Shown: positions 14,558 through 36,054, numbered from the stretch's first letter. The stretch is DNA of 64,000 bases from Promethearchaeia archaeon (GCA_029856125.1 JAHQWJ010000014.1:32001-96000), one strand, 5' to 3'. The notes: generated by a model from the letters alone, not told the origin. Numbers and translations are program-made.

Positions 14558-15913
14558 TTAATAAAATTCACAATCTTCAAGTATCATAGACAAATCTATA
14601 ACCGGTAAATCAGGTTTGTTGCGACTGGCAGCTAAATGTAAATTATTTTTACAAAAGACACAAGCGCTAACTAAAACTTCGGCATCGGTTTCGATTGCTT
14701 CCTTTAAGCGGTCTTCGTTAATGTTCTCCCAGCATGCTACAGTTTCATCTAAACGATTATTAGCAATATCAAGTGAGATTTCTCCGTATAAGGCTCTTAC
14801 TCCGCCTCCCGCACCACAGCATAACGACATTTCTCGGTTGTGTCTCATTTCGATAAACTTAACGCCTTCAATCATGTTCATTAGCTCTCTTGGCTCGTCG
14901 TAAACTCCACAGTATCGTCCTAAGTGGCATGGATCGTGATATGTGATAACCATAGGGTCTTCTTTTGTACGTTTCGTGTACCTAATCTTAAGACCTTTTT
15001 GTTTTACGATTTTAGGAACAAATTGAACCAAGTGAGAAAGCTCAAACCCAAGATCTCCGCCAGCAAACTTAGTATATTCTGTTGTAAATGTAGAAAAACA
15101 GCCTGCACAAGAAAAAACGAGTTCGTTTACTCCTAACTTACGGACCATGTCAAGGTTATATTCAACTAATTGAAGAGCATCGTCTTCTAACCCAGTTCGG
15201 AACATAACCGAGCCACAACAATATTCATCAGGAAATAAAATGAACTTCACGCCTAGTTTTTCTAAAATTCGAGCAGTTGCCGTACTTAACTCGTTATTAC
15301 GATATGAGCTTGTACAACCAACGAAATAACCAACTAAATGCTCATCAATATCACTTGGTTTTAATTCTCCAGATTCTATTTGTCTAGTACGTTCTGTTCC
15401 ACGTTGTAAAGCCTCGTATCCTTCTTTACAGGTTTCCGAATCACACCAATTATATCTATCTGTTCCACTTTCGAGAAATGGATTTTTATTTGTCAGTATC
15501 GAGTTTTTTAAGATTCCTAATTTTTCAGGTAGAACACCTTTACGCACTGCAGTTCTTCTGTAATTTTGAAAGACTTCTAAAGTATCGATTCCTACTGGGC
15601 AAACGGTTCTACAATGGCCACAAAGCATACATTGAAATAACGCAGGCACGATTTCTTCTTTATCGAAATCAAGCTCTCTTTTAGATAAGGCTTTGAGGAT
15701 TCTATTACGTCCACCAGCATAGTCTCTTTCGGAAAAGGTTATGCTATATACTCTACAAACGTTACGGCAATAACCGCACTGTATGCATTTCTCGAAATCG
15801 TTGTCTGTTTTGCGTCCTGGATCAACTAAATTCTCTTGGTCTGGTGCAAAAAATCCTGAGACTGGAGAACCAGTCGTAATTACTTTTTTTACATCACTTA
15901 CTTTTTCATTCAT
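14558..15913 (-). CDS. 2x[4Fe-4S] plus two CCG-domain oxidoreductase (GlcF/HdrD-like)
   Basis: CIQCGYCRNVC, CMLCGHCRTVC, YFVGC..CCGS..SCAGC, YHDPC..CCGAGGG..SACVFC. Confidence 0.9.
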   Translation of the reverse strand: MNEKVSDVKKVITTGSPVSGFFAPDQENLVDPGRKTDNDFEKCIQCGYCRNVCRVYSITFSERDYAGGRNRILKALSKRELDFDKEEIVPALFQCMLCGHCRTVCPVGIDTLEVFQNYRRTAVRKGVLPEKLGILKNSILTNKNPFLESGTDRYNWCDSETCKEGYEALQRGTERTRQIESGELKPSDIDEHLVGYFVGCTSSYRNNELSTATARILEKLGVKFILFPDEYCCGSVMFRTGLEDDALQLVEYNLDMVRKLGVNELVFSCAGCFSTFTTEYTKFAGGDLGFELSHLVQFVPKIVKQKGLKIRYTKRTKEDPMVITYHDPCHLGRYCGVYDEPRELMNMIEGVKFIEMRHNREMSLCCGAGGGVRALYGEISLDIANNRLDETVACWENINEDRLKEAIETDAEVLVSACVFCKNNLHLAASRNKPDLPVIDLSMILEDCEFY

Positions 15914-15938
15914 TATTAATTTTACTCCATTTTTGTTT

Positions 15939-17411
15939 TTAGATTGTTTTCATTGTTTTAAAGAGTCGTTTTGCTATCCAAAATAGAAGTCCCATCCTCC
16001 AAGTTCTCATCTTTGCTTTCACCAATCTGTAAGAGTTAACGAGATCTTTTGGGTCTAATTTGTTTTTCATTGCTAGTAAGGCCGCTGCTTTTTCAGGATT
16101 GTATTTGAGAAAGTAGAACGTATTTACTACGCCTAAAGTGTATAAGCTGTCTCCATTTTCGTAGTTATTTTTAGTTATATCGTTAAAAACTGCTTTAATT
16201 CCGAAAAATTCTCGAGAGTCCTTAATATTAGAAAGACCAAACAGTTTAACTCTGTTCTCTCCTTTAGCTCCAGACATCATGTAGAATGCATGTCGATACT
16301 TTTCTTTAGAGGTTTCAGTATAAAAGTTGTAAAAATCTTCGATTCGACCGTCAGATACCATATATTCTTGAAAAATTAAGTTCTCGCACCAACGTCCAAC
16401 ATTTAATTCAGTATCAGCCATGTCTCTCCATTTTTCCTTTAGATACCATTCTTCAACGCTAAGTCCGTCTAACTTTGAAGCTGTTTCTTTCGCAAATGAA
16501 ACGCTTTGAGAGGTCGCACTAGGATCGTCAGAATATACCGCATAGACGAAATAATCTCGCGATGGAAAAGTCCAGTGAGCATATTTCTCAAAATGTTTGT
16601 CTGAAAGCGAAAGGAAAAGCGGTTTGCTTGCATCGCTATTTTTCAGCGTTCGAAAGAACTCAATTGCCATTTTAAATGTGTGAAAACTGTATCCTACCAT
16701 CTCTAATGAAGTCTTAAGAGACGTTACTTCCATTTCTACTTCAGCGACAGCACCGAATATTCCAAAAGAGCCTATAACATCATCAAGCGATAAATCTCCT
16801 TGAGATTCGCGAGTTATAGTTTCAGTAGAACCATCTGGTTTCACAAAAACAATAGATCGTAATATATCTTTCATTGATCCATTTTTTAAGACACCCACTC
16901 CTACTTTACCAGAAGTAGCAACAAATCCGCTAACACAACTAGCTCTATAGCTAGTAGGATAACATTTTGGAGCTAATCCATATTCGAGAAGTTCTTCCAT
17001 GAGTTTTTGCCAAGAAATTCCAGCGTCACACTTAACAACCATTTTCTCTTTGTCAATATTGTGAACTTTGTTCATTCGTCGAAAATCAATTATTACACCA
17101 CCTTTAGTAGGTGTAGAAGCTGAATAACACGAAGTTCCTGCGGCTCGTAGGGTCATAGGTAATGAATATTCATCACATTTTTGCATCAATTTAGAAAGTT
17201 CTTCGGTATTACCAGGACGGATTACGTGAGTAGCTCGATATTCTTCTTTAAACTTATAGTGATACTTCGATAACAATGAAAGATCACCAGAAGTTGCTTC
17301 AATCTCGTAGATATCAGTGCTTACGTGTGGAGAGGGCATGAATTCTTCTACATCTTTTGTAAATTGTGTCTTTCCAATTTCTTCTTTTTCATCAATTTTT
17401 GCTTCATTCAT
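15939..17411 (-). CDS. FAD-binding (PCMH) oxidoreductase, GlcD/D-lactate dehydrogenase-like
   Basis: RAAGTS, GGVIID..RMN, DAGISW, GSFGIFGAV, K.KLDP..L.N; lacks the usual C-terminal HG.G motif. Confidence 0.8.
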   Translation of the reverse strand: MNEAKIDEKEEIGKTQFTKDVEEFMPSPHVSTDIYEIEATSGDLSLLSKYHYKFKEEYRATHVIRPGNTEELSKLMQKCDEYSLPMTLRAAGTSCYSASTPTKGGVIIDFRRMNKVHNIDKEKMVVKCDAGISWQKLMEELLEYGLAPKCYPTSYRASCVSGFVATSGKVGVGVLKNGSMKDILRSIVFVKPDGSTETITRESQGDLSLDDVIGSFGIFGAVAEVEMEVTSLKTSLEMVGYSFHTFKMAIEFFRTLKNSDASKPLFLSLSDKHFEKYAHWTFPSRDYFVYAVYSDDPSATSQSVSFAKETASKLDGLSVEEWYLKEKWRDMADTELNVGRWCENLIFQEYMVSDGRIEDFYNFYTETSKEKYRHAFYMMSGAKGENRVKLFGLSNIKDSREFFGIKAVFNDITKNNYENGDSLYTLGVVNTFYFLKYNPEKAAALLAMKNKLDPKDLVNSYRLVKAKMRTWRMGLLFWIAKRLFKTMKTI

Positions 17412-17426
17412 CTTTTTTTCACCTCA

Positions 17427-18035
17427 TCAGTATATGGGAGGAATGGGTAGTTCTAATAAGAGCCCTAAAAGAAAGGCCCCCCACCATCCTGCTAACGTAA
17501 AGTATCCTGTCATTCTTGCGAGATTTCGTTGTCCAGAAGCCCCAAATAAGAAGCTTGCGACACCTGTCATTAATCCAAAGGCTCCAAGAATTATATGAAG
17601 CGTGTGGATCATTCCGGAATAGTTAAGTATTTCCGGTGGAGTCAAGAACATTAATAGAATAACGTTTATTATCGTTACAATCAATGCTCCTCCAGCAGCT
17701 AATCCGTGCCACATAACATATTTTGCCTCGTCATATAAGACAAGAATTGTGCCAACCGATAATGAAATTAAAGCTGGCAAACCTAGAATTAATCCTATAT
17801 GCCAACTACCAAAATCTGGGTCAAACCCAGGAGATTGATAATCACTTAGTCTAAGAGCAAATATTTCAATACCATCTAATACGATTATTACAGTCATCAA
17901 AACTCCGAATATCGTTGCCATAATCCAAATGAGAACTTTCTTTTGATCTCGTTTCCTAAAGTTCAATATTAGAATCAATGCTATAAATATTGCAACAGCT
18001 GCAACGGAAAGGATTATTTGTATTTCAGGTTCCAT
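17427..18035 (-). CDS. His-containing polytopic membrane protein, DUF420/cytochrome b-like
   Basis: About 6 TM; WHIG, WHGLAAG, IHTLHIILG, RNLARMTG; ends 15 nt before the FAD gene start. Confidence 0.5.
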   Translation of the reverse strand: MEPEIQIILSVAAVAIFIALILILNFRKRDQKKVLIWIMATIFGVLMTVIIVLDGIEIFALRLSDYQSPGFDPDFGSWHIGLILGLPALISLSVGTILVLYDEAKYVMWHGLAAGGALIVTIINVILLMFLTPPEILNYSGMIHTLHIILGAFGLMTGVASFLFGASGQRNLARMTGYFTLAGWWGAFLLGLLLELPIPPIY

Positions 18036-18135
18036 AATCTTTACCTTTTTTTTTTGTTTTGTTTAAATTTGTAGTTAAATTTTTGATATTTTTTATAATC
18101 ATTTATAATGCTAAATAAACCTTTTTATTCCATAA

Positions 18136-19020
18136 TCATCTTAGGATTACACCTAAAAAGACTAATAAAAATCCTAAGACCATGTAAAGTGAAGCGATCT
18201 TGAAGATTAGAAATGTAAGTTTATTCGTCGGTTTTATCAAACTTTTGATTGATAAAATTATAATAATTAACGACAATACACCCCAGATGATTCTGATAAT
18301 CCAGTTTGCGCCCAATAGCCTCGCAGCTTCGTATAGCGCTACGCTACTAAGAAACGCACTAATTGCTATTACGCGCATAGTTTGGGCTTGTGAACTTACA
18401 ATAGGCCACATAGGTACTTTTGCTTTTTTATACCCCTCAAAATTTCTAGGAATTAGCGCTATCGTAAGAATATGTACGGGTATCCAAGTAAGAATGAAGA
18501 TAAGCAATAAAAATCCAATCCAATCTAAGCTCCCGGTTATTGCAACTCTACCTGCCCAAGCAGGGAGCCCACCAGCTATCCCTCCGAAGATAATACTATA
18601 TTTAGTTCTCCTTTTCAACCAAATACTATAAATAACGACATCAAAAAAGAATCCTAAAAATACGATTAAAGCTGCTAACCAGTTGAGAGTCAAAAACGCA
18701 AGGAAAATCCCTAAAACAGTGAATATGGTTCCAAATGTAAGCACTGCGGAGGCCGTAACCTTTCCGCTCGGTAATGGTCGATCTTTTGTACGCTCCATGA
18801 TTGCGTCGATATCCCTATCTATGTACATGTTTAGTATAGTAGTACCCGATACTGCAAGATACAAAGAAATTGCTAAATGGAGTAAATTAAACCAGTTAAT
18901 TTCTACTGCTAAACTTGCAACAGTAATCAAATAAGTAAAAACGCCAGTGTAAACTAAAAGTATCGTCTGTCTCGCTTTAATAAGTTCTCCAAAGAGCGTT
19001 AATACATTTTTCAAATTCAA
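18136..19020 (-). CDS. cyoE: Protoheme IX farnesyltransferase (heme O synthase)
   Basis: NMYIDRDIDAIMERTKDRPLPSG, Y..WLKRRT, GGIAG, WIPVH, P..P. Confidence 0.92.
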   Translation of the reverse strand: MNLKNVLTLFGELIKARQTILLVYTGVFTYLITVASLAVEINWFNLLHLAISLYLAVSGTTILNMYIDRDIDAIMERTKDRPLPSGKVTASAVLTFGTIFTVLGIFLAFLTLNWLAALIVFLGFFFDVVIYSIWLKRRTKYSIIFGGIAGGLPAWAGRVAITGSLDWIGFLLLIFILTWIPVHILTIALIPRNFEGYKKAKVPMWPIVSSQAQTMRVIAISAFLSSVALYEAARLLGANWIIRIIWGVLSLIIIILSIKSLIKPTNKLTFLIFKIASLYMVLGFLLVFLGVILR

Positions 19021-19132
19021 GAATATCCCCGAGCGTTAGCAATTAATATTCAGTTTATAAATGAAAGAAATACCAAATAAAAGTTGAATAGTGAAATTAA
19101 GAATGCTTAATAAAATTTTATTTCGATAAATA

Positions 19133-19200
19133 TAAGATTAAATTAGAAAAAATAAGATTAGAAAATAGTAAGAATAGAAAAAAATAAGATTAGAAAAAAA
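19133..19200. repeat. Degenerate tandem TAAGA(T/A)TAGAAAA units, U-rich on the minus strand (terminator-like)
   Basis: Four imperfect copies immediately downstream of the 19205..20740 stop. Confidence 0.5.
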
Positions 19201-19204
19201 AATT

Positions 19205-20740
19205 TTAAACGGTTTTTTCAGTAAGAATCAGAGGTTTAGAACCACTTGATCCGTGAGCCGGTGGTGGGATAGTTTTTACGTTTTTCCCAAGCGCGTATAA
19301 TCCAATGACAAAGCCTGTTAAGAGAAACCATACTCCTATAAATGTTATGGTTCGAAAGCCATCGAAATTTTCCAATGGTAGCGGACGTACCATATGTATC
19401 ATTGCGAAAGGAAACGTTAAATTAACTCCGATAAAAAATATCCAACCCAGAATTTGTTTCATCCTTCCTTTAACCTTAAAAAAGTCAATAGCATGTATCA
19501 TCAGAGCCACAGCGATCATCACTGCCAATTGGTGCCAGTGAGCAACGTTAAAATTATATTCCAGCATTACCATATCATGCAATCTATAATAACCGTCTGT
19601 AGTAAGACCAACATAGATTTGAGGGAAAACTAAAATTTCTGCAATGAAAAGAAGGTAATAATACGACAACTTTACAGGTTCCTTAAACAATGCTTTGAGC
19701 CTTGTCCCACGCGATGCGTCTCGGAAATCGTCTCCTAAATGTTCTTTAATAGTGGTCTTCATGCCAACTATTGACATAATAATCGTGACGAGGATCAATA
19801 TCCCTGCTCCCACCCATATTATGTAATGGTTTAGGACCCAAGCACCATAAGACAATGTTATAACGCCAATCGGAGTAATCGCTAAAAGATATGTATAAAG
19901 TTTACCTGACAATTTACTCGTACGGAAGGCGACCAACATTACCATAGCAGCTGATTGAGCAAGCTGTATGTGAAGGTGACCAACTATCATGTCTTGGACG
20001 ATATCATGATGTCCCCCGAATGTTATACCTTTTCTAATGATTGCTTCTGCTAAAAAGGCGATAGGTTCGCGATCTAACCCCCAAATAGTACCAGTAAAGT
20101 TTTCAATAGCGGAGAGAGCGCCATATATTGCCGAAACCATAATGCATATCGCTAAAATTACGAGATTAAAATATTCCAAATTCAACCCACGGAACGTAGA
20201 TCCATCTGGATTACTTTTTGGAAATCTACCTTTCACTGGCCAAGCGGCTATAAGAAATACTATTCCACCGACAAAGCAGAGCAGCATACCGAACGTGAAA
20301 AGCTCGTGGAAAAATCTTAGACGTGTATAGGCAAAAATCATTCCGTTTATACCTACAAGAAATGCACTAGGTATAAAAAGAATTTTTAAAGTTGGTAGCC
20401 ACTTCTGACGGATTTCGTAGTGTTCTAATATCCAGAATACGTTCGCGATAAAAAATGGTAAAGCTAACGAGTGATATATCATGACAAGTCGAGCTGTTCT
20501 TGATATTACGTCGTCGTTAAGCATCCAAGGCCAGATCGGTTCTCCACCAATTAGAACGGTTAAAGGTTCAGAGAAGGTCATATAGAACATTACTTGTATG
20601 AAGACAAATGCAAACATGATAAAGTGTATCTTCTTAAAATGCGTTTCTGGGTCAATTCTCATCTCCTGCGTTTCCATTGAAGTTTCTGCACCAGTTTCCA
20701 TTGGGACTGTTTCCGTTATTTCTGTTTCTATTTTTAACAC
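19205..20740 (-). CDS. 12-TM heme-copper-oxidase-fold homolog, copy 1 (non-canonical)
   Basis: Twelve hydrophobic segments; His in TM2 (YHS), TM6 (GHLH) and TM10 (AHWH), plus FHE and NHY. Confidence 0.6.
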   Translation of the reverse strand: MLKIETEITETVPMETGAETSMETQEMRIDPETHFKKIHFIMFAFVFIQVMFYMTFSEPLTVLIGGEPIWPWMLNDDVISRTARLVMIYHSLALPFFIANVFWILEHYEIRQKWLPTLKILFIPSAFLVGINGMIFAYTRLRFFHELFTFGMLLCFVGGIVFLIAAWPVKGRFPKSNPDGSTFRGLNLEYFNLVILAICIMVSAIYGALSAIENFTGTIWGLDREPIAFLAEAIIRKGITFGGHHDIVQDMIVGHLHIQLAQSAAMVMLVAFRTSKLSGKLYTYLLAITPIGVITLSYGAWVLNHYIIWVGAGILILVTIIMSIVGMKTTIKEHLGDDFRDASRGTRLKALFKEPVKLSYYYLLFIAEILVFPQIYVGLTTDGYYRLHDMVMLEYNFNVAHWHQLAVMIAVALMIHAIDFFKVKGRMKQILGWIFFIGVNLTFPFAMIHMVRPLPLENFDGFRTITFIGVWFLLTGFVIGLYALGKNVKTIPPPAHGSSGSKPLILTEKTV

Positions 20741-21089
20741 CTTAATTTGTAATATAGATTAAAAAAGTATTTTTTTACTAATTAAATAATTATTGATTAA
20801 TATATCTTTTGTTTACCTTACTTTGTAATTTCCTTGAGCTTAGCGTAAAAGAATACGTAATTCAGAAAATAATTTTTATTAACTGCTTATAGAAAAATGG
20901 TAGAATAAAAATTTTTGATAAATTGATGCGTTTTAATCCCTAACATTTTGAATGAATTGAGTTTTATTAGTTCAATTTCATGTTTAGGATGAAGTAACCT
21001 GTAGTTCAAAAAGAAAATTAGTAGATGTCAACAAAAAAAATAAAAAGAAAAAAAAATTTATTGCAAAAATGCTTATTTATAGATTTAAT

Positions 21090-21860
21090 TTAGTCTTCTA
21101 ATTCAATACCCGGAATATTAAAGCCCCATCTTTTAGGAACAAAAGTTCCCCAAGCAAAGAATAGAACAGCTAACAGGTAAATGAATGGAAACGCTGCTAA
21201 GACTATGAATAGATATCCTTCCTCTAGAGGCGCCGCCATTTCAACAAGGGTTGCACCAGCTAATAGAACTCCAACGAGACCCATTAGAACACCTGCTATT
21301 GGGAATGCAAGCGCTGCTTTTCCGTTTTCATCTCTCGTTTGTAATGGAAGCCAAATTATTAAAATTGCACTAGGAACGTGTAAGGCCATTACTAAAATCG
21401 GTACAAGGTATGAGGGAGTGCCAAGAACTATAATCATGTTTTCATTTTTAAAGAATCCTATTACGAGGGACATAACAATTACGTAGTATAAAAGGTAATT
21501 ACCAATTTTATCCTTTTCAGGTTTCACATTTTTCCATAGACCTACGGCAAACAGTCCTACCGTTAATGCAAAAAAGACCGAGTTTACAGGATCAGTAAAA
21601 GTCCAGAAACCGGCGAGTCGGGTAATTGACATGGATCGTACGTCGACAGCAACATAGGTTATAGCGAGATGAGTATTTATCCAAAGCAAAGCGAAAGAGA
21701 TTCCCCAATAGAGATGCTCAGGTTTCCTAGTATTAAGATAGGAAGACAAAAGAAATAACGCAAAAATAACAGAGATAATTGCTGCTATCCATAAGACAAT
21801 CTCAATTGCTTGACCCCATTCATAGAACGAGAATTCCCAGGGAGTTGCAAATAACACCAT
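21090..21860 (-). CDS. Stand-alone 7-TM membrane protein (HisKA_7TM-like)
   Basis: About 7 TM; Y...RKPEHLYWGISF pattern; no cytoplasmic output domain. Confidence 0.5.
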   Translation of the reverse strand: MVLFATPWEFSFYEWGQAIEIVLWIAAIISVIFALFLLSSYLNTRKPEHLYWGISFALLWINTHLAITYVAVDVRSMSITRLAGFWTFTDPVNSVFFALTVGLFAVGLWKNVKPEKDKIGNYLLYYVIVMSLVIGFFKNENMIIVLGTPSYLVPILVMALHVPSAILIIWLPLQTRDENGKAALAFPIAGVLMGLVGVLLAGATLVEMAAPLEEGYLFIVLAAFPFIYLLAVLFFAWGTFVPKRWGFNIPGIELED

Positions 21861-22117
21861 TTTATTTCATCACTTATTTGTTTTTTTTTTAATTTAATTT
21901 TATATTTATTTAAAAAAATTGTTTTTGATGTATTTTTTAAATAATAGTTAATATTAGAAAGAAGGTTCTATATAAAAGTTTGTGATTGAAAGAGCTACTG
22001 AATGATAATTCAAAATAAGAATAAATCTTTAAATAGTAGTTGACATCCTACTATATACTAATAGAAATTTATCTATTAGTTTAAAAAATATACAAAAAAA
22101 ATATATTAAAAAAATAG

Positions 22118-22888
22118 TTGGTGTTTAAAACGCGGATAAAACGATCTGATTTGATATTTAATTTAATAATATTAGCTCTTTTTGCGGTTGTTGCGGCTAC
22201 TCAGCTTTTAAGTGCTTATGGTGCGATATGTGTAGTGTGGGATATTCCTTCAGGTATGCCTTCTCCACCGTTTCCAGCAGACCATACATATTGGGATATG
22301 TTTTCATATGCAGGTACTTTTAGTTGGATTTATCAACCTTCGAATATAATAACCTGGATTATAGCATTTGCTTATGGCTTTTTGATTTACTCGTATTTTA
22401 CAAAAATGCCTTGGAAGCGTTTCTTTATAATTGCTATGGTTGTCGCCTTCTTAGGATTTATTACTGGACTTCTCCCCGCACTTGTCTCAGATACTGCTGG
22501 ATTCAGTGAAGCTTTTGACTTTGGTTCACCAAATTGGGGACGAACAATAGGAAATGCATTAATGTTAGTTGTACTTCTAGCGATGAACTTTGTGCCAAGG
22601 TTAAAGGTAGCAACCAAAAGTTTTATCGAAGAACGAAGTGTAGCTGGACAATATGTAAAACAATTAATTTTAATGTCCTTGTTTTTCTTCTGGTTAGGAG
22701 CTGCCTCATTCCTCGGAACAACTTTTATGGCAAATGCACATGTTGTTGGTGGAATCAATGTTTGGACAACTGTTGATATTCAATTTGTTGGTGGTGTAGT
22801 TACGTCACTCATCGGGGCTTCAATGTTGTCAACCGCCCTGATTTACAATCAAATTCGACCATCTTCAGCACTCATAACAACAAAGTAA
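22118..22888 (+). CDS. Hypothetical polytopic membrane protein
   Basis: About 6 hydrophobic segments, protein-like composition, flanked by a promoter-like AT region and a terminator. Confidence 0.6.
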   Translation: MVFKTRIKRSDLIFNLIILALFAVVAATQLLSAYGAICVVWDIPSGMPSPPFPADHTYWDMFSYAGTFSWIYQPSNIITWIIAFAYGFLIYSYFTKMPWKRFFIIAMVVAFLGFITGLLPALVSDTAGFSEAFDFGSPNWGRTIGNALMLVVLLAMNFVPRLKVATKSFIEERSVAGQYVKQLILMSLFFFWLGAASFLGTTFMANAHVVGGINVWTTVDIQFVGGVVTSLIGASMLSTALIYNQIRPSSALITTK

Positions 22889-22921
22889 ACGCAGTAACAA
22901 AAGAGATATTATTAATAATGT

Positions 22922-23005
22922 AGCATTCCGCAAGTGATTGGAGTGTTTAATTTTTTTTTCTTTTTTTATTTTTTTATTTTTTTATTTTTTCTCATATTTT
23001 TTTTC
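22922..23005 (+). terminator. Hairpin followed by a long T-tract
   Basis: AGCATTCC (22922-29) pairs with GGAGTGTT (22940-47) allowing G-U; about 50 nt of T-rich sequence follows. Confidence 0.6.
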
Positions 23006-23613
23006 AGATGTTTTCTATTCGCCGTTTATTGACTTAAACTATCTATCCAACTATCGAAAAAGAATTGCCTTTTAATTTAATAGCAAGAATATAAAATATT
23101 GGGTCTAAGACGTGTTATTTATTAGTGGTTTTTACATTTTTCAAATACTTCTTTTTATTACATTTAACAATTTCATTATAGTTATAATCTCTTCCTTAGA
23201 GCAATTAATCATACCGAAAATGATTAAATAAGTTTTAAAAATGACTATAATCCATGTTATCTTAACAATTTTTGGATATTGTATCATTCATTAAAAGAAT
23301 TCAAGATAGTTTCTTCTAAAAGAAAATTAGAACAAAGAATTTGAAAAATGGTTGAAAATGTTGTTAATCAATATAGTATTGATGATATTGTATTGGTAAT
23401 TGACTATTCATATGTTAAATCGTAAAATTTGACCTTAATTTTCTCTTTTAACTATAGAAAAGATGGATTATTTGATGATTTATATAAAGAATTATATTTC
23501 GTATTAAAACAAGAGGGAAAAAATTGTGGTATTATGTAAAATTCTAAAACTAATTGTAAGTAAAAAAGTAAGAAAATAAAACAGGTAAAAAAATTTGTTT
23601 ATTTTTAATTTGT

Positions 23614-24297
23614 TTAATGTTTGCCTTTTACTTCTAATTTTGGCGCGTTTTTTTGACCTAACTTCGGTAAGGTAAAAAGTAACACAAGTACTATGATCGT
23701 CGAGACAGTTGCAGGAATTGCAGCTTCAGCGAAGGTTAGATGTGGGTTATAGTATGGTAGTCCAACGTAATAATGCTCTGTTAGGACTCCCCCGAGGGAA
23801 CAAGTAGCAGATAGAGTAATATTAGTCCGACCTTCACCTAGATATGGTACCACTAATCCGGTATTTTTGTCTATCGGTGCATCCTCTACCACTTCTCCGG
23901 TTTTCTGGAGTCCTGGAAGATTAAGGTAATAACGAGCTATTGTGTGTGAGACTGTAATTTCAGTTATATCGGTTGGTTGTTCAGTGTAGACAAACGTATA
24001 ATTAGGCGCTACTGAAGGAAGTACAGCAAGAGCATAATTATCCTGATCATCGTAATATGTGTTATGATCGTGATCTTCCCACACTTGTGTGATATTAACC
24101 CACACTTCGATTGTTATTATATAATGATAATGAGGATCCGAAACTCCGTGGGTATATTGAACGCTAAGTAGTTCCGTATTAGTATCGTATTCCATATCTA
24201 TGTTTATAGGAGGATGCGCTCTCACGTTGAGAACGCTCATCGTAACACCGAGGATTAAAAAAACGGACAAAACATAAAATATTTTTTTTTTTGACAT
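23614..24297 (-). CDS. Exported, C-terminally anchored His-rich metal-binding protein (SOR-like pattern)
   Basis: Signal peptide ending VRA|HPP; YTHGVSDPHYHYI; DHDH; ATCSLGG; C-terminal TM and basic tail. Confidence 0.6.
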   Translation of the reverse strand: MSKKKIFYVLSVFLILGVTMSVLNVRAHPPINIDMEYDTNTELLSVQYTHGVSDPHYHYIITIEVWVNITQVWEDHDHNTYYDDQDNYALAVLPSVAPNYTFVYTEQPTDITEITVSHTIARYYLNLPGLQKTGEVVEDAPIDKNTGLVVPYLGEGRTNITLSATCSLGGVLTEHYYVGLPYYNPHLTFAEAAIPATVSTIIVLVLLFTLPKLGQKNAPKLEVKGKH

Positions 24298-24468
24298 CTT
24301 AATTCGGGTTTTTTTTTAAATTATAAATTTATGAATTGTTAAAATAGTTTAGCAATTTAATATTTTACTTTTTTCAAACCTACTCGACGCTTTAATCACA
24401 TATAAACAATATTTGGTCGTTGAGCAAAAAAAAAAGAAAAGAAAACTGAGTAACACTTTTTAGTATCG

Positions 24469-25881
24469 TTATTCTATAACGAGAGGAATAATATTTTCAG
24501 AGAATTTTTCCCGTTTAAATATTGCCTGGTATACGATTAAGCCTAAGAACAGTAGTACATCAAAAAAGAGAAGGAATAGGCCTCCCAGAATTATGGATTT
24601 TAAAACTAATTCGCCAGCGGCATCGGTTGGTGATCTTAAAAAATAAAAAGCTGCTGCGGGAAAAGCGAGCAACATGCTTGCAAACAATGACCATCCTATG
24701 ATCTTCCGTAATATGTTTTTAGGGATTAAGTTGTGGATTATTAGGCAAAAAACTACGATTGCTCCGAGAGTAATAAGAATGTGGGGGTGTCCAGTAGCAA
24801 AATTGCGTTCAACTACGTAATTAGATAGGTCGCGATAAGTTTCAAGGTCTGCTACGATAACCATGCCAGGTATTACCACAATTATGCCGGCTAAGAAAAA
24901 TGGAACGAACATGCTTAATCTCAATGGGTTTTTTAAAACTGCTGTAATTTTAGAGCTAAGAGAGGAAGAATTATATCCCGAACCGATCTCTTCTTTCGCT
25001 ACTTCTCTCCACCCGTAAACAGCAATTATCACGCCTGTAAACAAAATTAACGCTCGAGCTGGCATTAGAATGGCATTTGCAGCTTTACCCATAACAAGCA
25101 CGAGGAAGTAACCTACTGTCATAGCAATTACACCAGGCAAAAGTAACCAAAGACCAATCTTAGCTAATCTACCTTTAACTCCCGTATATCTAAAAATCAG
25201 AATTAAGACTCCAGTTAACAATAACGCATTCATTAACCGCATGTGGAAACTGGCGAGTTCTTGAAACAATTCCTTGGGAGTCACTCGATCTAAATATGCT
25301 ATTTCCACTAGGAAAAATTGTTCGTCGATTTCCAGCATTATGATTGCAGCGACAGCTCCAAATATTGCAAATACTATCATGCTTCCGATGACAATTACGG
25401 CACTTAAGTGTAGGATATTGAAACCAGCAATTTTAGGAATGTCCCGATAATATTCACTTTCTTTTACTTCTTTTCCAGGAATTAAACCGTAAACCAACAA
25501 CACAGCACAGGCAAATAAGAGGCTAAGACCAACTAAGAACACATGATGTAAAAGAAAATTATCAGAATATGCCCAAAAAATAGCACCAATACCCCCACAA
25601 ATTCCACCTATAGCAGCCATGTACTTAATTGGTTTAATTACCCTCGATCGCATTTCGATTACGTCTAAAAATAAAAGCGTTACAATTCCAATGAACGGCG
25701 TTGACATGGAGTGGTAGGTCATAATTACTCTATGGGCTTTGTGATGCACAACTGGCGTGTAGTAAAAAGGCCAAGCGCTATAAAGCATATGATACGAAAA
25801 CGCAATAGAAAGGTTAATTACGATAATAACTGATAATAGTAAGATAAGTAATTTATTGGAAAATTTCCATTTAATTTCGAT
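24469..25881 (-). CDS. 12-TM heme-copper-oxidase-fold homolog, copy 2 (paralog of 19205..20740)
   Basis: MTYHSMSTP vs MIYHSLALP; LLHHVF; FHMR; ERNFATGHPHIL vs EYNFNVAHWHQL. The frame is open upstream of 25788 and adds TM1; probable ATC start 25881 (or ATT 25875) after AAGGTGA. Confidence 0.6.
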   Translation of the reverse strand: MEIKWKFSNKLLILLLSVIIVINLSIAFSYHMLYSAWPFYYTPVVHHKAHRVIMTYHSMSTPFIGIVTLLFLDVIEMRSRVIKPIKYMAAIGGICGGIGAIFWAYSDNFLLHHVFLVGLSLLFACAVLLVYGLIPGKEVKESEYYRDIPKIAGFNILHLSAVIVIGSMIVFAIFGAVAAIIMLEIDEQFFLVEIAYLDRVTPKELFQELASFHMRLMNALLLTGVLILIFRYTGVKGRLAKIGLWLLLPGVIAMTVGYFLVLVMGKAANAILMPARALILFTGVIIAVYGWREVAKEEIGSGYNSSSLSSKITAVLKNPLRLSMFVPFFLAGIIVVIPGMVIVADLETYRDLSNYVVERNFATGHPHILITLGAIVVFCLIIHNLIPKNILRKIIGWSLFASMLLAFPAAAFYFLRSPTDAAGELVLKSIILGGLFLLFFDVLLFLGLIVYQAIFKREKFSENIIPLVIE

Positions 25882-28782: not shown

Positions 28783-29604
28783 TTAATTATAAATTATTTT
28801 AGTCAGTTCACTTTCTTGTCCTTTAAGATAATTTTTGAGGACACCCTTCTTCTTCATCGAGAGAATAACTACTTCAAGTCCTTCTTGTATTTTATCCTTA
28901 ATAGAAGCCAGTGAAAGCAATTTACCTCGCATTTTGCCAGAGGCATCATCATTAGCTGTTTCGTTCGATTTGTGAACCAATTGCTCAATCTCATTGATAT
29001 TTATCTCTCTAAGCATTTGTGCATGTGCTTCTAATTTTGGGTCTTTATCGAATACACCAGGCACATCTGTTGCAAATATCAGTTGTTTAGCGTCTACTAC
29101 GCGCGAAAGAACTACAGCCAATTGATCTCCGCCACAAACGCTAAACCCCATACTAGAGTCGTACATCATGTCTCCTCCTATCAGGGGGACCATCCCCAAA
29201 GATAAAAAGCCTTTTAAAGAGTTAAATGCGTAATCAGTTATTACCATCTTACTGCCCACAACCATCGAAGAGGCGTGCATTAAGTTAATAGGAATTCTTT
29301 CTTCCAGAAATGTAGTAGCAATTGTTTTTCGAAACCCATTCACGATTTGTTGCGTTTTTGACATAGAAATTAATTGATCTTTGTTTCTAAATCCCTTATG
29401 AAGGTTGTATTTTAGCACGGGTGGATGACCGAAAGAACCTACCCCGTGGACAATCACAAGATTTTTGATTAATCCTAAATCAATACATTCTTTTATTTCT
29501 ACTGCGACCGCTTTTATAACTTCCTCTCTAAGTTTATATGGCGTTGATTTGTTCGTAAGCAATGAACCGCCAAGCTTTAAAACAATTGGATCTTCTACTG
29601 TCAT
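28783..29604 (-). CDS. ipk: Isopentenyl phosphate kinase
   Basis: KLGGSLLT.K, VHGVGSFGH signature, GD, TDV.GV, D.SG.M.GK. Confidence 0.88.
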   Translation of the reverse strand: MTVEDPIVLKLGGSLLTNKSTPYKLREEVIKAVAVEIKECIDLGLIKNLVIVHGVGSFGHPPVLKYNLHKGFRNKDQLISMSKTQQIVNGFRKTIATTFLEERIPINLMHASSMVVGSKMVITDYAFNSLKGFLSLGMVPLIGGDMMYDSSMGFSVCGGDQLAVVLSRVVDAKQLIFATDVPGVFDKDPKLEAHAQMLREININEIEQLVHKSNETANDDASGKMRGKLLSLASIKDKIQEGLEVVILSMKKKGVLKNYLKGQESELTKIIYN

Positions 29605-29624: not shown

Positions 29625-30425
29625 TTAGAAACTAAAAGAATAAGGCCAAAAGGTTGGAAATGCGAATTCAAGTATCAAGATAACGATTACAACCGCCAGA
29701 AAAATTGTGAAATTATCAGTGCCCTTAGGTGATACCGCTTCTACTATCGTAGCAACTATACTAACAACTATTATCGGTAAAATTAGTATGAGTATATCAA
29801 ACTGTGGAACTTCTAAAGAAAAAATCAACACGAGAATAGAGCTTACTAATATCGATCCAACTAGCATACCTATACTTCCTACTATAGTTTTCTCGCTCCC
29901 TTTGAGTCCAATCTTTTTTTTACCAAATTTACGCCCTATTATATCTGCTAACCCATCTCCACCGGAAATACATCCAATTATAAGTAGAGCGGTAGGATTT
30001 GCGTTACTTATCCCGGTAGATGGTACGTAAAACCAAAACCAAGTCATTAATACCATAACAATCGCATAGTAGAGCGTTCCTTGAAGAAGTTCCCGAGGGT
30101 CTCCCGATCTCGACATAGATGCCACAAAACTTTCGTTCTTTATAACACCCATACCGATAGTAATGAATTGTAATACGAATAACAATGGTACTATTACAGC
30201 TACATAATGACTAACGATCTCACCTGAGAAGAGCATCCACGTAACTACGAACACGGGGCCCGCAAAAATATGCACAAATTTTCTCGTAATAATTTGCGAA
30301 ACTTTTCCCTTTTTCTGCATATATGCGTTAATCTGAACTAAAGCCAATAGTATTACTATGGATATAACAGTCGCAATTAAATCCCAAACAAAAACTAAAT
30401 TACTTCCTAACGGATTAAATACCAT
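29625..30425 (-). CDS. CTP-dependent prenyl-alcohol (phytol/farnesol/dolichol) kinase
   Basis: RKFVHI, SMSRSGDPRELLQGTLYY, GDGLADIIG, KT..GS, DN. Confidence 0.85.
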   Translation of the reverse strand: MVFNPLGSNLVFVWDLIATVISIVILLALVQINAYMQKKGKVSQIITRKFVHIFAGPVFVVTWMLFSGEIVSHYVAVIVPLLFVLQFITIGMGVIKNESFVASMSRSGDPRELLQGTLYYAIVMVLMTWFWFYVPSTGISNANPTALLIIGCISGGDGLADIIGRKFGKKKIGLKGSEKTIVGSIGMLVGSILVSSILVLIFSLEVPQFDILILILPIIVVSIVATIVEAVSPKGTDNFTIFLAVVIVILILEFAFPTFWPYSFSF

Positions 30426-33412: not shown

Positions 33413-34738
33413 ATGATTAAAATGGCAGTAAAAGTAGCTTTTATGCAGAGTAGTGATTGCTGGGGATGTCATCAATCCTTATTGAACGCACATTTAGGAT
33501 TGTTGCCAGTTCTTCCAGCGCTCGAATTTGTGTATTGGCCAGCAGTTGTAGATTTCAAACTTGATTCACTAAAAGCGCGACCAGACGGTGATATTCTAGT
33601 AGGCTTCGTAGAAGGAAGTATGAGAACAAAAGCAGATGTAGAAAACGCCAAACTCATGAGGGCTAAGTGCCAACTCATAATAGCTTTTGGTAGTTGTTCT
33701 TGCTACGGCAATGTTCACGGATTAGCTAATGAGTGGGATATTGAAGAAGCTATCAAACGAAAGTATACGCAAGTAGAGTCGATTACTAACGAATCTCCGC
33801 ACGAACCAAAAGAACATATGCCGGGATTTACAGGAAAAATCGTTCCATTGGACGAAGTCATAAGCGTTGACGTATTTATGGCAGGTTGTCCTCCGAAACC
33901 AGAAGCTATCATAAGCGCAGTTCAATTTTTGCTTGGTCAAAAGCCACAGCCAATGGCAGATTTGTCTTTTTGTAACGATTGTTCGTTAAATAACGAAAAT
34001 TGTTTACTTGAAAAATACGAATTATGTTTTGGTCCCATTACTAGTATTGGTTGTACTTTAAAATGTACTGATAATGGAAGCCCATGCGTCGGCTGTCTCG
34101 GACCAGCAAAAACGGTCTCAGCAAGAGCAGAAAAATTGAAAACAATGACACAAAATATGCATCAGCTTAGCTCCGGCGACAAGAAGAATTTACACGAGTT
34201 CTTAACCTTGTTTTTAAATGTACCGTTAATGTCAGGATTTGATTTAGCGGGGGATATCTTAAAACAAGTAAGAAAAACGGGTGAGGCTCAAACCGCTTTA
34301 GCTAACGTACCTGTTGACACGGGAGATATATATGCAAACATCCTGAAATATCTAAAGAACAATAGAGAGTTCATAAGTATTTCAAATGTGTGCGACCAGT
34401 GCGACCTTGAGATCGGAAGTAAATCTCGAATGACGAAAGTTAAACGCGATTACGAAGGACTTCCAAATTCAACCGATTGTTTAATAGAACAAGGTTACCT
34501 ATGTGCAGGTCCGATAACAAGAGCAGGATGTGGTGGTTTGTGTATGAAAGTAAACACACCTTGTTCAGGTTGCTTTGGTCAAACAGCTTGGAATGTTGAT
34601 CAAGCTGAACGCTTTGCTGATGTAGTAACGAAGGGCTTCAATGTGGCTTTATCAAAAGAAGAATTGCTTGCGCAAGTTAAGGATAAGCTCGGCTTCATGG
34701 AAAAGTTTACATTAGCTACAAACAAAAATTATAGGTAG
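33413..34738 (+). CDS. mvhG: F420-non-reducing [NiFe] hydrogenase small subunit (MvhG/VhuG-like), extended
   Basis: CWGC, VEGS, GSCSCYG, GCPP and two copies of the distal/medial cluster module. Confidence 0.88.
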   Translation: MIKMAVKVAFMQSSDCWGCHQSLLNAHLGLLPVLPALEFVYWPAVVDFKLDSLKARPDGDILVGFVEGSMRTKADVENAKLMRAKCQLIIAFGSCSCYGNVHGLANEWDIEEAIKRKYTQVESITNESPHEPKEHMPGFTGKIVPLDEVISVDVFMAGCPPKPEAIISAVQFLLGQKPQPMADLSFCNDCSLNNENCLLEKYELCFGPITSIGCTLKCTDNGSPCVGCLGPAKTVSARAEKLKTMTQNMHQLSSGDKKNLHEFLTLFLNVPLMSGFDLAGDILKQVRKTGEAQTALANVPVDTGDIYANILKYLKNNREFISISNVCDQCDLEIGSKSRMTKVKRDYEGLPNSTDCLIEQGYLCAGPITRAGCGGLCMKVNTPCSGCFGQTAWNVDQAERFADVVTKGFNVALSKEELLAQVKDKLGFMEKFTLATNKNYR

Positions 34739-34749
34739 GTGAAAAAAAG

Positions 34750-36054
34750 ATGGTAAAAGAAATAACAGTAGAACCAGTCACTCGATTAGAGGGACATGGT
34801 GGATTAAGAATTGTCATTGGAGATGACGGTAAGGTAAAAGATGCTCAGTTTAACATAACTTCGACACGATTTTTCGAGAAATTTCTTGAAGGACGTTATT
34901 GCGAACACATACCTAGAATCACGCCTAGAATTTGCGGAATTTGTCCAATCCCACATCATTTAACTCCCACAAAAGCTGTAGAAGACGCTTGGGGCGTTTC
35001 TATTCCAGAACCAGCTCGAAAATTGCGAATTTTGTTACAGAACGCGAAACAATATTCTAGTCATACGTTACATTTCTACGCACTCGCAGCACCTGATTTC
35101 TTATTAGGTCCGTTTGCGGATCCTGCGTTAAGGAATGTCGTTCATGTAATTAACAAAATGCCAGATGTTGGAGCAATGGCTTTGAAAATGATGGATTTCG
35201 GTCAAAAACTCTGTGCGGAGATTGGAGGAAAATCTGTTCATCCTGTTTCTGCGATAGTTGGAGGCATGAAAAAGCCAATGAGCGAAGCTGCTCGGGATAA
35301 GTTTTTGAAAATGATTCCTGAACAAGTCGAATTTGCAAAGAAGACTGTTGAGATCGGATTAAAAGTCGTCACCGATTATTGGGATGTCGTTGCTAATGTA
35401 GGTGTTGTTCCTACTTATTACTTAGGCATGACCAATAAAGGTGTCCATGATATTTACGAAGGAGATATTCGAATTGTTACACCTGATGGAAAGAAGATTG
35501 ATTACGATGTTCATAACTACTTAGACGCACTTGGTGAACATATTCCAGAGCATTCTTATGCGACACACATGTATTACAAGCCTGCAGGATATCCTGAGGG
35601 TATTTATCGTTCTAACACGTTAGCAATGATAAATTGTGCCGATAAAATGGCAACTCCTTTGGCAGATGGCGCACTTAAAGACATGAGAGATAAACTTGGA
35701 CCAATTTCCCATCACACCTTTGCTTATCACTGGGCTCGATTAATTGAATTAGTTGAGTCGATTGAGATGGTTGCGACACTATTACAGGATCCTGACATTG
35801 TAAATCCTGATTGTAAAACATTAGATGTCCAACCAAGAGAAGGAGAGGGTATAGGTATGACCGAAGCCCCGCGGGGCAATTTATTGTACCACATTTGGTC
35901 TGATGCTGATGGTATATGTAAGAAAGCAAATCTCTTAGTAGCGACAAATCATAACATTGCTGGAATTGAGAAAACACTTATGCACGTAGCAAAGCAGGTG
36001 TTTGAAGATAAGGCGTTAGAAGGATTAAAATTACCAGACCCTTGGATTGATTAA
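34750..36054 (+). CDS. mvhA: [NiFe(Se)] hydrogenase large subunit lacking the C-terminal L2 motif (VhuA-type)
   Basis: TRLEGHG, RFFEKFLEGR, RICGIC, EAPRG; ends DPWID with no DPCxxC. Confidence 0.92.
   Translation: MVKEITVEPVTRLEGHGGLRIVIGDDGKVKDAQFNITSTRFFEKFLEGRYCEHIPRITPRICGICPIPHHLTPTKAVEDAWGVSIPEPARKLRILLQNAKQYSSHTLHFYALAAPDFLLGPFADPALRNVVHVINKMPDVGAMALKMMDFGQKLCAEIGGKSVHPVSAIVGGMKKPMSEAARDKFLKMIPEQVEFAKKTVEIGLKVVTDYWDVVANVGVVPTYYLGMTNKGVHDIYEGDIRIVTPDGKKIDYDVHNYLDALGEHIPEHSYATHMYYKPAGYPEGIYRSNTLAMINCADKMATPLADGALKDMRDKLGPISHHTFAYHWARLIELVESIEMVATLLQDPDIVNPDCKTLDVQPREGEGIGMTEAPRGNLLYHIWSDADGICKKANLLVATNHNIAGIEKTLMHVAKQVFEDKALEGLKLPDPWID

What the first reader, a model, noticed from the sequence alone, without database searches (positions are those of the whole stretch)
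14558..25881. Candidate undescribed prenyl-heme membrane redox system: heme O synthase, two non-canonical HCO-fold proteins, an exported His protein and a flavin/FeS dehydrogenase
Seen: eight of nine genes lie on the minus strand in the order HCO-like copy 2, exported His-rich protein, (one plus-strand membrane gene), 7TM protein, HCO-like copy 1, heme O synthase, His-rich DUF420/cytochrome-b-like protein, FAD oxidoreductase, FeS-CCG protein. Established: the recognised clients of CyoE/CtaB prenyl-hemes are heme-copper oxidase superfamily enzymes. No CuA subunit II, subunit III or canonical CoxI is present in this window, and characterised Lokiarchaeia are anaerobes. Inference: the 12-TM paralogs are the heme O clients. 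They would form a membrane electron-transfer or O2/NO-handling module fed by the neighbouring dehydrogenase.
Basis: partly seen in the sequence, partly recalled or inferred. Interest (0 to 1): 0.92.

Follow-up and report, generated by a model that had tools for sequence, protein, structure and literature searches.

The report
Copper-less oxidase-fold heme O system
An anaerobic Asgard archaeon that seems unable to make heme and has no ordinary respiratory oxidase keeps a conserved gene cluster for a heme-O-making enzyme and an unannotated protein shaped like a respiratory oxidase core, which probably marks an undescribed heme O membrane redox enzyme in relatives of eukaryotes and in many anaerobic bacteria.

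Summary
Copy 1 (19205-20740) folds like heme-copper oxidase (HCO) subunit I: pLDDT 91, top ten matches all HCO/NOR, Z 21.9. It keeps the heme histidines, lacks the helix-VII His-His pair and cross-linking Tyr, and adds His145/His255.

The genome (Lokiarchaeia, 99% complete) has no CoxI, CtaA, bd oxidase, hemA, hemB, hemC or hemH. Among 251 Asgard genomes, all 43 carriers have heme O synthase, and 33 of them lack COX1. The pair recurs in Anaerolineae and other bacteria, and the linked synthases group apart from coxAB-linked ones.

Corrections: the system normally has one copy, and copy 2 is a rare degenerate paralog. The DUF420 label is not supported.

Best reading (0.42): the protein is the heme O client, built on scavenged heme, and removes NO or O2. 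Rivals are a pure electron conduit and a heme-maturation protein; chemistry is untested. This scan found the same family before on other DNA (22 notes, at least 18 genomes). Overlap with the HCOH families of Pei et al. 2014 could not be checked.

The parts
19205..20740 (-). Core: 12-TM HCO-fold protein, copy 1 (511 aa). Family-wide H90, H145, H255, H257, H305, H401, H403, plus R84, Y138, E232, W301, E394
   Evidence: AF2 pLDDT 91; VIA Z 21.9 to cbb3 CcoN 3mk7 and 20.7 to cNOR 4xyd; conservation; three internal repeats
18136..19020 (-). Core: heme O synthase of a lineage that travels with the HCO-fold protein
   Evidence: TIGR01473 217/210.3 bits; only copy in the genome; tree
21090..21860 (-). 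7-TM protein with nearly invariant H161; often directly upstream of the HCO-fold gene in Asgard archaea and bacteria; function unknown
   Evidence: 9 of 21 Asgard loci, about 33 of 80 genome loci, alignment; only weak Pfam leads
22118..22888 (+). 6-TM protein with conserved Cys, PSxxR and His motifs; cross-domain neighbour of the core pair
   Evidence: 11 of 21 Asgard loci; 19 of 80 genome loci
17427..18035 (-). Membrane protein with four invariant His (79, 110, 144, 147) in a four-helix bundle; candidate heme-b anchor or wire; Lokiarchaeia only
   Evidence: DUF420/b561 only a weak lead
15939..17411 (-). FAD-linked oxidoreductase (PCMH/GlcD-like N-terminal domain; no FAD-oxidase_C hit; C-terminal EHG motif absent, so substrate unknown)
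   Evidence: linked in 10 of 10 Loki loci
14558..15913 (-). 2x[4Fe-4S] plus 2xCCG protein (GlcF/HdrD-like), likely partner of the FAD protein
   Evidence: 10 of 10 Loki loci
23614..24297 (-). Exported protein with signal peptide and C-terminal anchor; invariant H50, H58, C166; weak superoxide-reductase-fold lead; normally directly upstream of the HCO-fold gene in Loki
   Evidence: (Desulfoferrodox E 0.0036, 2 of 10 members); a paralog lies on contig C140
24469..25881 (-). HCO-fold copy 2: rare, divergent paralog keeping the equivalents of H90, H145, H255, H401 and H403 but not H257 or H305; probable non-standard start
28783..29604 (-).
   Evidence: NF040647 167/120 bits; 7 of 10 Loki loci; next to cyoE in MK-D1
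29625..30425 (-).
   Evidence: A phytol-kinase gene sits next to cyoE in MK-D1 (DSAG12_02984); close homologs in 11 of 13 Loki carriers and 1 of 47 non-carriers of the two Loki families

Best explanation
The 12-TM protein is itself the client of the neighbouring heme O synthase and is a copper-less, HCO-fold membrane redox enzyme that removes a reactive gas (NO and/or O2) for protection rather than for growth. SHOWN: HCO fold; retained heme-ligand His in helices II and X; no helix-VII His-His and no helix-VI Tyr; co-occurrence with a separate synthase lineage; no other HCO and no de novo heme pathway found in the genome. INFERRED: (1) heme b is taken from the environment or from partner cells. 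(2) CyoE prenylates it, in Loki with prenyl diphosphate supplied by the prenol kinase and IPK paralog. (3) A low-spin heme sits between H90 and H403 and the prenyl heme on H401, faced by H257 and H305. H255 and H145 form an extra heme or metal site in the pore that is empty in canonical HCOs. (4) In Lokiarchaeia electrons come from the FAD/FeS-CCG dehydrogenase through the four-His membrane protein, and the exported His/Cys protein stands where subunit II would (an FGE-type lipoprotein does so in bacteria). Step odds: fold about 0.97, binds heme about 0.9, is the heme O client about 0.7, NO/O2 is the substrate about 0.4.
For: Fold: the ten best of 48,161 chains are all HCO/NOR catalytic subunits, Z 14.6-21.9, next row 9.6; Foldseek agrees, weakly by E-value. 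Profile alignment puts H401/H403 on the helix-X HFH and R452 near the heme-propionate arginines, though weakly (45%, E 2e-4). 43 of 43 Asgard carriers have cyoE; among 233 genomes without COX1, 36 have cyoE and 33 of these have the protein. The synthase is within 6 kb in 55 of 80 further genome loci, mostly bacterial, and elsewhere in the genome in 22 of 24 of the rest tested. 15 of 50 bacterial carriers lack any COX1 family member, including one from a single chromosome record. Linked synthases form one side of a branch (100/99) apart from coxAB-linked ones, and G036 keeps both kinds. Bacterial neighbours point to NO or oxidative stress: gNOR in 10, CRP/FNR in 25, FGE-sulfatase (NirV-like by my knowledge) in 38, DUF438-hemerythrin-PAS in 13 of 80 loci. 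In P. syntrophicum MK-D1 the operon adjoins a flavodiiron protein, glutaredoxin and ferredoxin-thioredoxin reductase. One relative is fused to the FGE domain.
Against: O2 reduction in HCOs needs a redox-active Tyr (PMC11214002); helix VI has none, and the helix-VII Tyr298 is conserved only in the Loki clade. The three-His FeB site of NO reductases is incomplete. The dehydrogenase is linked only in Loki, so the electron source elsewhere is unknown. Promethearchaeales disappeared from cultures exposed to low oxygen (10.1101/2025.02.26.640444), so any O2 protection is weak. His-to-pore assignments rest on HCO geometry from my own knowledge, not on measured distances, and hhalign puts H90 in register with the second His of the HxH motifs. 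Related genomes are not independent samples.
Confidence: 0.42

Rival explanations
1. Electron conduit without gas chemistry: with CuB gone, H257 ligates the heme on H401 directly and H145 that on H255, giving a two- or three-heme, all bis-His cytochrome. It passes electrons from the dehydrogenase across the membrane to an exported partner or to multiheme cytochromes, with the prenyl tail tuning or anchoring a heme.
For: His counts pair up three ways across the three repeats. Multiheme cytochrome c and ccmE/ccmF genes are neighbours in one Asgard family (f23), in Anaerolineae-type loci and in Pyrolobus. Neither a Tyr nor a full FeB site is kept.
Against: This genome has no ccmF homolog and only two ORFs with two CxxCH motifs. 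It does not explain the NO-related neighbours in bacteria. Conserved Y138, W301 and E232 look like more than bis-His packing.
Confidence: 0.24
2. Heme-handling protein: it imports, stores or further modifies heme (for example as an O2-independent stand-in for heme A synthase) together with CyoE, and the real client is another protein (gNOR or CoxI where present, otherwise the 7-TM or four-His protein).
For: 37 of 43 Asgard carriers lack hemB, as do 32 of 50 bacterial carriers. One bacterial subfamily lies directly behind gNOR, and L140 reads gNOR, HCO-fold gene, FGE, cyoE. The genome has no CtaA. Heme A synthase genes are usually syntenic with heme O synthase (PMC12808453).
Against: 33 Asgard and 15 bacterial carriers have no COX1-family client. 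18 of 50 bacterial carriers have hemB. The fold is that of the oxidase, not of CtaA.
Confidence: 0.22
3. Non-respiratory heme enzyme acting on a lipid or isoprenoid substrate, as styrene oxide isomerase does with the same repeat unit (proximal His in helix 2, Tyr in helix 3). The H255/Y138/H145 pore would be the active site, and the kinases and FAD enzyme would belong to an isoprenoid route.
For: The first repeat matches styrene oxide isomerase (Z 9.0), a trimer with heme b at the subunit interfaces that does Lewis-acid chemistry (PMC11374702). Prenol kinase and IPK track the Loki cluster. The FAD protein's best PDB match is alkyl-DHAP synthase.
Against: The kinases and FAD enzyme are not linked in the non-Loki loci examined. 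Z 9 is within the range of common helical bundles. The only constant partner is heme O synthase.
Confidence: 0.08

Closest known systems
C-family (cbb3) oxygen reductase subunit CcoN, PDB 3mk7_A
   Same: 12-TM three-repeat fold (Z 21.9, rmsd 3.8 over 397 residues); His in helix II, helix VI and HxH in helix X
   Different: 9% identity; no helix-VII His-His; no family-wide cross-linking Tyr; extra H255 and H145; no CcoO/CcoP; cbb3 uses heme b and needs no heme O synthase (own knowledge)
cNOR NorB (PDB 4xyd_A), qNOR and the eNOR/sNOR/gNOR/nNOR families (PMC11214002)
   Same: Fold (Z 20.7 and 14.6-15.8); no active-site Tyr; eNOR uses a prenylated heme As; gNOR genes are neighbours in 10 of 80 loci
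   Different: All these hit Pfam COX1, whereas this family does not; the helix-VII His pair, kept even in the neighbouring gNOR, is missing; no NorC or cupredoxin subunit
HCO-homology (HCOH) proteins incl. NnrS (Pei et al. 2014, PMID 24931479; paper not readable here, content from memory)
   Same: Three repeat units, reduced ligand set, nitrosative-stress gene neighbourhood (DUF2249, hemerythrin)
   Different: No NnrS or DUF2871 Pfam hit at E up to 1 in 26 divergent members; seven conserved His rather than the two recalled for most three-unit HCOH; tight link to a heme O synthase. Whether this family is among Pei's groups is unchecked.
Styrene oxide isomerase (PDB 8pnu)
   Same: One repeat unit superposes (Z 9.0); His in helix 2 and Tyr in helix 3; shows that the interfaces of this architecture can all hold heme
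   Different: Homotrimer of four-helix units, heme b, no redox partner
E. coli cyoABCDE (bo3 oxidase with its heme O synthase)
   Same: Oxidase-fold gene co-encoded with heme O synthase; best Foldseek row (6wti, E 3.5e-3, TM 0.52)
   Different: No subunits II-IV, no CuB site, different synthase lineage, host without a heme pathway

Membership tests
HCO O2 reductases (A/B/C) | 12-TM three-repeat subunit I fold | tested here: met
HCO O2 reductases (A/B/C) | Heme ligands: His in helix II and HxH in helix X | tested here: met
   H90 in 102/102, H401 98/101, H403 97/101; H401/H403 align with HFH. The role of H90 is inferred from its helix.
HCO O2 reductases (A/B/C) | Three CuB His (one in helix VI, His-His in helix VII) | tested here: not met
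   H257 present; only a single His (H305) after helix VII in all members
HCO O2 reductases (A/B/C) | Cross-linked active-site Tyr | tested here: not met
   No Tyr four residues after H257; Y298 conserved in Loki but not family-wide
HCO O2 reductases (A/B/C) | CuA or cytochrome c subunit II | tested here: not met
   CyoA and an Asgard CoxB gave no hit at E 1e-4 in the genome; none in the window
HCO O2 reductases (A/B/C) | Pfam COX1 (PF00115) above cut-off | tested here: not met
HCO NO reductases | Non-heme metal site of three His (or Asp plus His-His in gNOR) | tested here: not met
   Two His only; helix-VII pair absent, present in neighbouring gNORs
HCO NO reductases | NO to N2O activity | not testable with these tools
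   needs purified protein
HCOH proteins / NnrS | Three homologous four-helix units with a reduced His set | tested here: met
   Repeat 2 vs 3 probability 97%, 1 vs 3 94%, 1 vs 2 40%
HCOH proteins / NnrS | Match to the NnrS or DUF2871 profile | tested here: not met
   No such hit
HCOH proteins / NnrS | Listed among the families of Pei et al. 2014 | not testable with these tools
   paper not held
Heme O synthase (CyoE/CtaB) | TIGR01473 above cut-off with catalytic motifs | tested here: met
   217 vs 210.3 bits; motifs. The margin is thin, and several orthologs score just under the cut-off.
Heme O synthase (CyoE/CtaB) | Prenylates heme b; chain length | not testable with these tools
   needs LC-MS
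DUF420/CtaM or cytochrome b561 (202-aa protein) | Profile or fold match | tested here: inconclusive
   No Pfam hit; Atlas 0.82 and 0.77 leads; only generic bundles
Superoxide reductase (227-aa protein) | His4-Cys iron site and Desulfoferrodox profile | tested here: inconclusive
   E 0.0036 in 2 of 10 members; up to three His plus Cys, the His after Cys replaced by Gly; only a local match to the genome's own SOR
GlcD/D-lactate dehydrogenase (490-aa protein) | FAD-oxidase_C domain with EHG metal motif | tested here: not met
   Only FAD_binding_4; far below the glcD cut-off; the motif (from my knowledge) is absent in the sequence

The most novel reading that the evidence does not exclude
A previously unrecognised, copper-free class of terminal oxidase or NO reductase with three heme sites, inherited from early Asgard archaea. 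Heme-auxotrophic, nominally strict anaerobes assemble it from heme taken from partner cells and prenylated by a dedicated synthase, and in Lokiarchaeia wire it directly to a flavin/FeS dehydrogenase. It would be a heme O client outside the canonical HCO families and would give gas-reducing heme chemistry to lineages thought to have none.
Probability: 0.22. Interest if true: 0.92.

Novelty: new variant of a known kind. Interest (0 to 1): 0.74.

Why it matters
Whether the archaeal ancestor of eukaryotes could deal with O2 is argued from gene lists that see terminal oxidases only in Heimdallarchaeia (10.1101/2025.02.26.640444; 10.1101/2024.07.04.601786). The second paper notes heme o biosynthesis genes in all Heimdallarchaeia lineages. 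Here most Asgard heme O synthases (43 of 53 genomes) go with this unannotated protein and not with CoxI, so cyoE cannot be read as a marker of aerobic respiration. An HCO-fold heme system also exists in Lokiarchaeia, including the cultured P. syntrophicum MK-D1 (DSAG12_01126), where it can be tested. It would widen the known active-site chemistry of the HCO fold, imply heme cross-feeding in Asgard syntrophy, and name a family with at least 584 matching stretches in GTDB genomes.

Tried and rejected
Pfam, NCBIfam and PDB sequence searches do not recognise either 12-TM protein. Pei et al. 2014 could not be read. A complex prediction of copy 1 with the 7-TM protein and three hemes returned no answer (score 0.00) and is used neither way. 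MK-D1 RPKM values for the operon (236-291) are like those of almost all neighbouring genes and are uninformative. A paired role for the two paralogs was rejected. Contamination as the source was rejected: syntenic orthologs occur in many Loki genomes and in MK-D1. A canonical oxidase, heme A synthase, bd oxidase, cytochrome b, hemA, hemB, hemC, hemH or ChdC in the genome: none found. The fold search of the 202-aa protein gave only generic bundles. The cyoE tree has thin outgroup sampling (E. coli CyoE is a very long branch; no UbiA root was found), and the family tree is a quick FastTree without clade tests, so no donor or order of events is claimed. AhbC/AhbD and heme importers were not searched.


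Full report
Observation. The nine ORFs lie as described. The genome is a Lokiarchaeia bin: the closest homologs are named Ca. Lokiarchaeota/Promethearchaeota, and it is 99% complete with 6% contamination. The 294-aa protein passes the heme O synthase cut-off and keeps its motifs. The 490-aa and 451-aa proteins are an FAD_binding_4 oxidoreductase and a Fer4/CCG protein, one of about ten such pairs in the genome. The two 12-TM proteins are 24% identical and match no curated family.

Fold and site. An AlphaFold2 model of copy 1 from 115 sequences has pLDDT 91 and twelve membrane helices. Against 48,161 solved chains the ten best matches are all HCO or NOR catalytic subunits, led by cbb3 CcoN (Z 21.9) and cNOR (Z 20.7); the next row scores 9.6. 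Foldseek gives the same family with TM about 0.5 and weak E-values. The three four-helix repeats align with each other. Family-wide residues are H90 (helix II), H255-x-H257 (VI), H401-x-H403 (X), H145 and H305 (starts of IV and VIII), Y138, W301, E232 and E394. A weak profile alignment places H401/H403 on the helix-X HFH of COX1. The helix-VII His-His and the cross-linking Tyr are absent. From HCO geometry (my knowledge, not measured here) this gives a low-spin site H90/H403, a high-spin site on H401 faced by H257 and H305, and a possible third site H255/H145/Y138 in the pore that canonical HCOs leave empty. Styrene oxide isomerase, which matches one repeat (Z 9.0), binds heme at its trimer interfaces through a helix-2 His. 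Copy 2 lacks H257 and H305, occurs in 2 of 154 genomes of the order and sits on a long branch; it is a local paralog, not a second subunit.

Genome context. No COX1, CtaA, bd oxidase, cytochrome b, hemA, hemB, hemC, ferrochelatase or ChdC was found. The synthase therefore has no known client and no home-made substrate.

Distribution. In 251 Asgard genomes the protein occurs in 43 (one broken fragment set aside), cyoE in 53, COX1 in 18 and hemB in 16. All 43 carriers have cyoE; 33 lack COX1 and 37 lack hemB; of ten cyoE-only genomes seven have COX1. The two genes are within a few kb in 20 of 21 loci examined. Kin are not independent, but the link also holds in bacteria. A GTDB scan gave at least 584 relatives, the best mainly Anaerolineae, Aminicenantes and Symbiobacterium. 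cyoE is nearby in 55 of 80 loci and elsewhere in 22 of 24 further carriers; 15 of 50 carriers have no COX1-family gene and 18 have hemB. Linked synthases from both domains form one side of a branch (100/99), apart from coxAB-linked Asgard enzymes and E. coli CyoE (thin outgroups). Distant relatives occur in Pyrolobus and Infirmifilum.

Accessory genes differ by lineage. Lokiarchaeia: exported His/Cys protein, four-His membrane protein, FAD and CCG proteins in 9-10 of 10 loci, and a prenol-kinase/IPK pair in 7. In MK-D1 the operon is DSAG12_01127-01123 beside a flavodiiron protein, while its cyoE lies elsewhere with those two kinases. The kinase is in 11 of 13 Loki carriers and 1 of 47 non-carriers, though it is common in family f8 (probably Thorarchaeia) without the system. 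Other Asgard: 7-TM, 6-TM and an HxlR regulator, with ccmE/ccmF and multiheme cytochromes in family f23. Bacteria: CRP/FNR, 7-TM, an FGE-type lipoprotein (once fused), 6-TM, DUF438-hemerythrin-PAS, DUF2249/DUF1858, peroxiredoxin, and in 10 loci a gNOR, identified by Asp in place of the helix-VI His and a subunit II without CuA cysteines. The 7-TM and 6-TM genes, not the dehydrogenase, are the cross-domain partners.

Mechanism. The simplest account of a synthase kept without any canonical oxidase is that the HCO-fold protein holds the prenyl heme (about 0.7). The neighbourhoods favour NO or O2 removal, but the site fits neither known O2 reductases, which need a Tyr, nor known NORs, so I put that chemistry at 0.42. 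A bis-His electron conduit (0.24), a heme import or maturation role (0.22) and non-redox chemistry (0.08) remain open.

Known versus new. It is built like HCO subunit I but fails the membership tests for O2 and NO reductases. It fits the general description of HCOH proteins without matching NnrS or DUF2871; I could not read Pei et al. 2014 to see whether it was listed there. The ESM Atlas labels one related cluster as a cytochrome oxidase subunit I profile domain protein, so the distant homology is partly visible to automatic annotation. My literature searches found no description of the family or of its link to heme O synthase. Earlier notes of this scan reach the same reading on other genomes; they are not independent support. 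Verdict: a real, conserved and experimentally accessible new variant of the HCO fold with its own heme O synthase; interest 0.74.

Noticed in passing
window:28783-30425: IPK paralog and phytol-kinase-like gene track the cluster in Lokiarchaeia and sit beside cyoE when it is moved away (MK-D1, G089, G094): probable prenol salvage feeding the synthase.
   Followed up: yes
window:25881-25900: Copy 2 has no ATG/GTG/TTG before its first conserved helix; an ATC lies six bases after a GGTGA, suggesting a non-standard start. The G371 ortholog also shows no Met there.
   Followed up: partly
window:5119-12647 and 33413-36054: The cluster is flanked by hydrogenase maturation genes (hypF, hypD, hypE) and an F420-non-reducing [NiFe] hydrogenase operon, which are O2/NO-sensitive targets.
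   Followed up: partly
window:30899-32680: YeeE/TsuA-type sulfur transporter followed by small DsrE/TusD-like genes, also next to the cluster in G071.
   Followed up: no
window:26144-26877: PIN-domain-like gene and small antitoxin-like gene between copy 2 and the MFS transporter; may mark the insertion that brought copy 2.
   Followed up: no
L063, L064, L066, L067, L073, L074, L095, L127, L140: Anaerolineae gNOR operons directly upstream of one subfamily of the HCO-fold gene, often with DUF438-hemerythrin-PAS and DUF166.
   Followed up: partly
L154-L159, L166: Asgard family f21 has a divergent member (SHEH in helix VI, grouping with Pyrolobus-like sequences) and a cyoE at a separate locus, with no COX1.
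   Followed up: partly
L153 (G025): An Asgard genome with cyoE but neither COX1 nor a detected HCO-fold gene: a remaining orphan synthase.
   Followed up: no
proteins P0208 and P0213: Distant relatives fused to a C-terminal PD40 beta-propeller; another (P0133) is fused to the FGE domain.
   Followed up: no
L147 (G000 contig C140:41807-42301): Second copy of the exported His/Cys protein, between a short-chain-dehydrogenase-like gene and a gene that resembles a ZIP metal transporter (not tested), hinting at a metal role.
   Followed up: no
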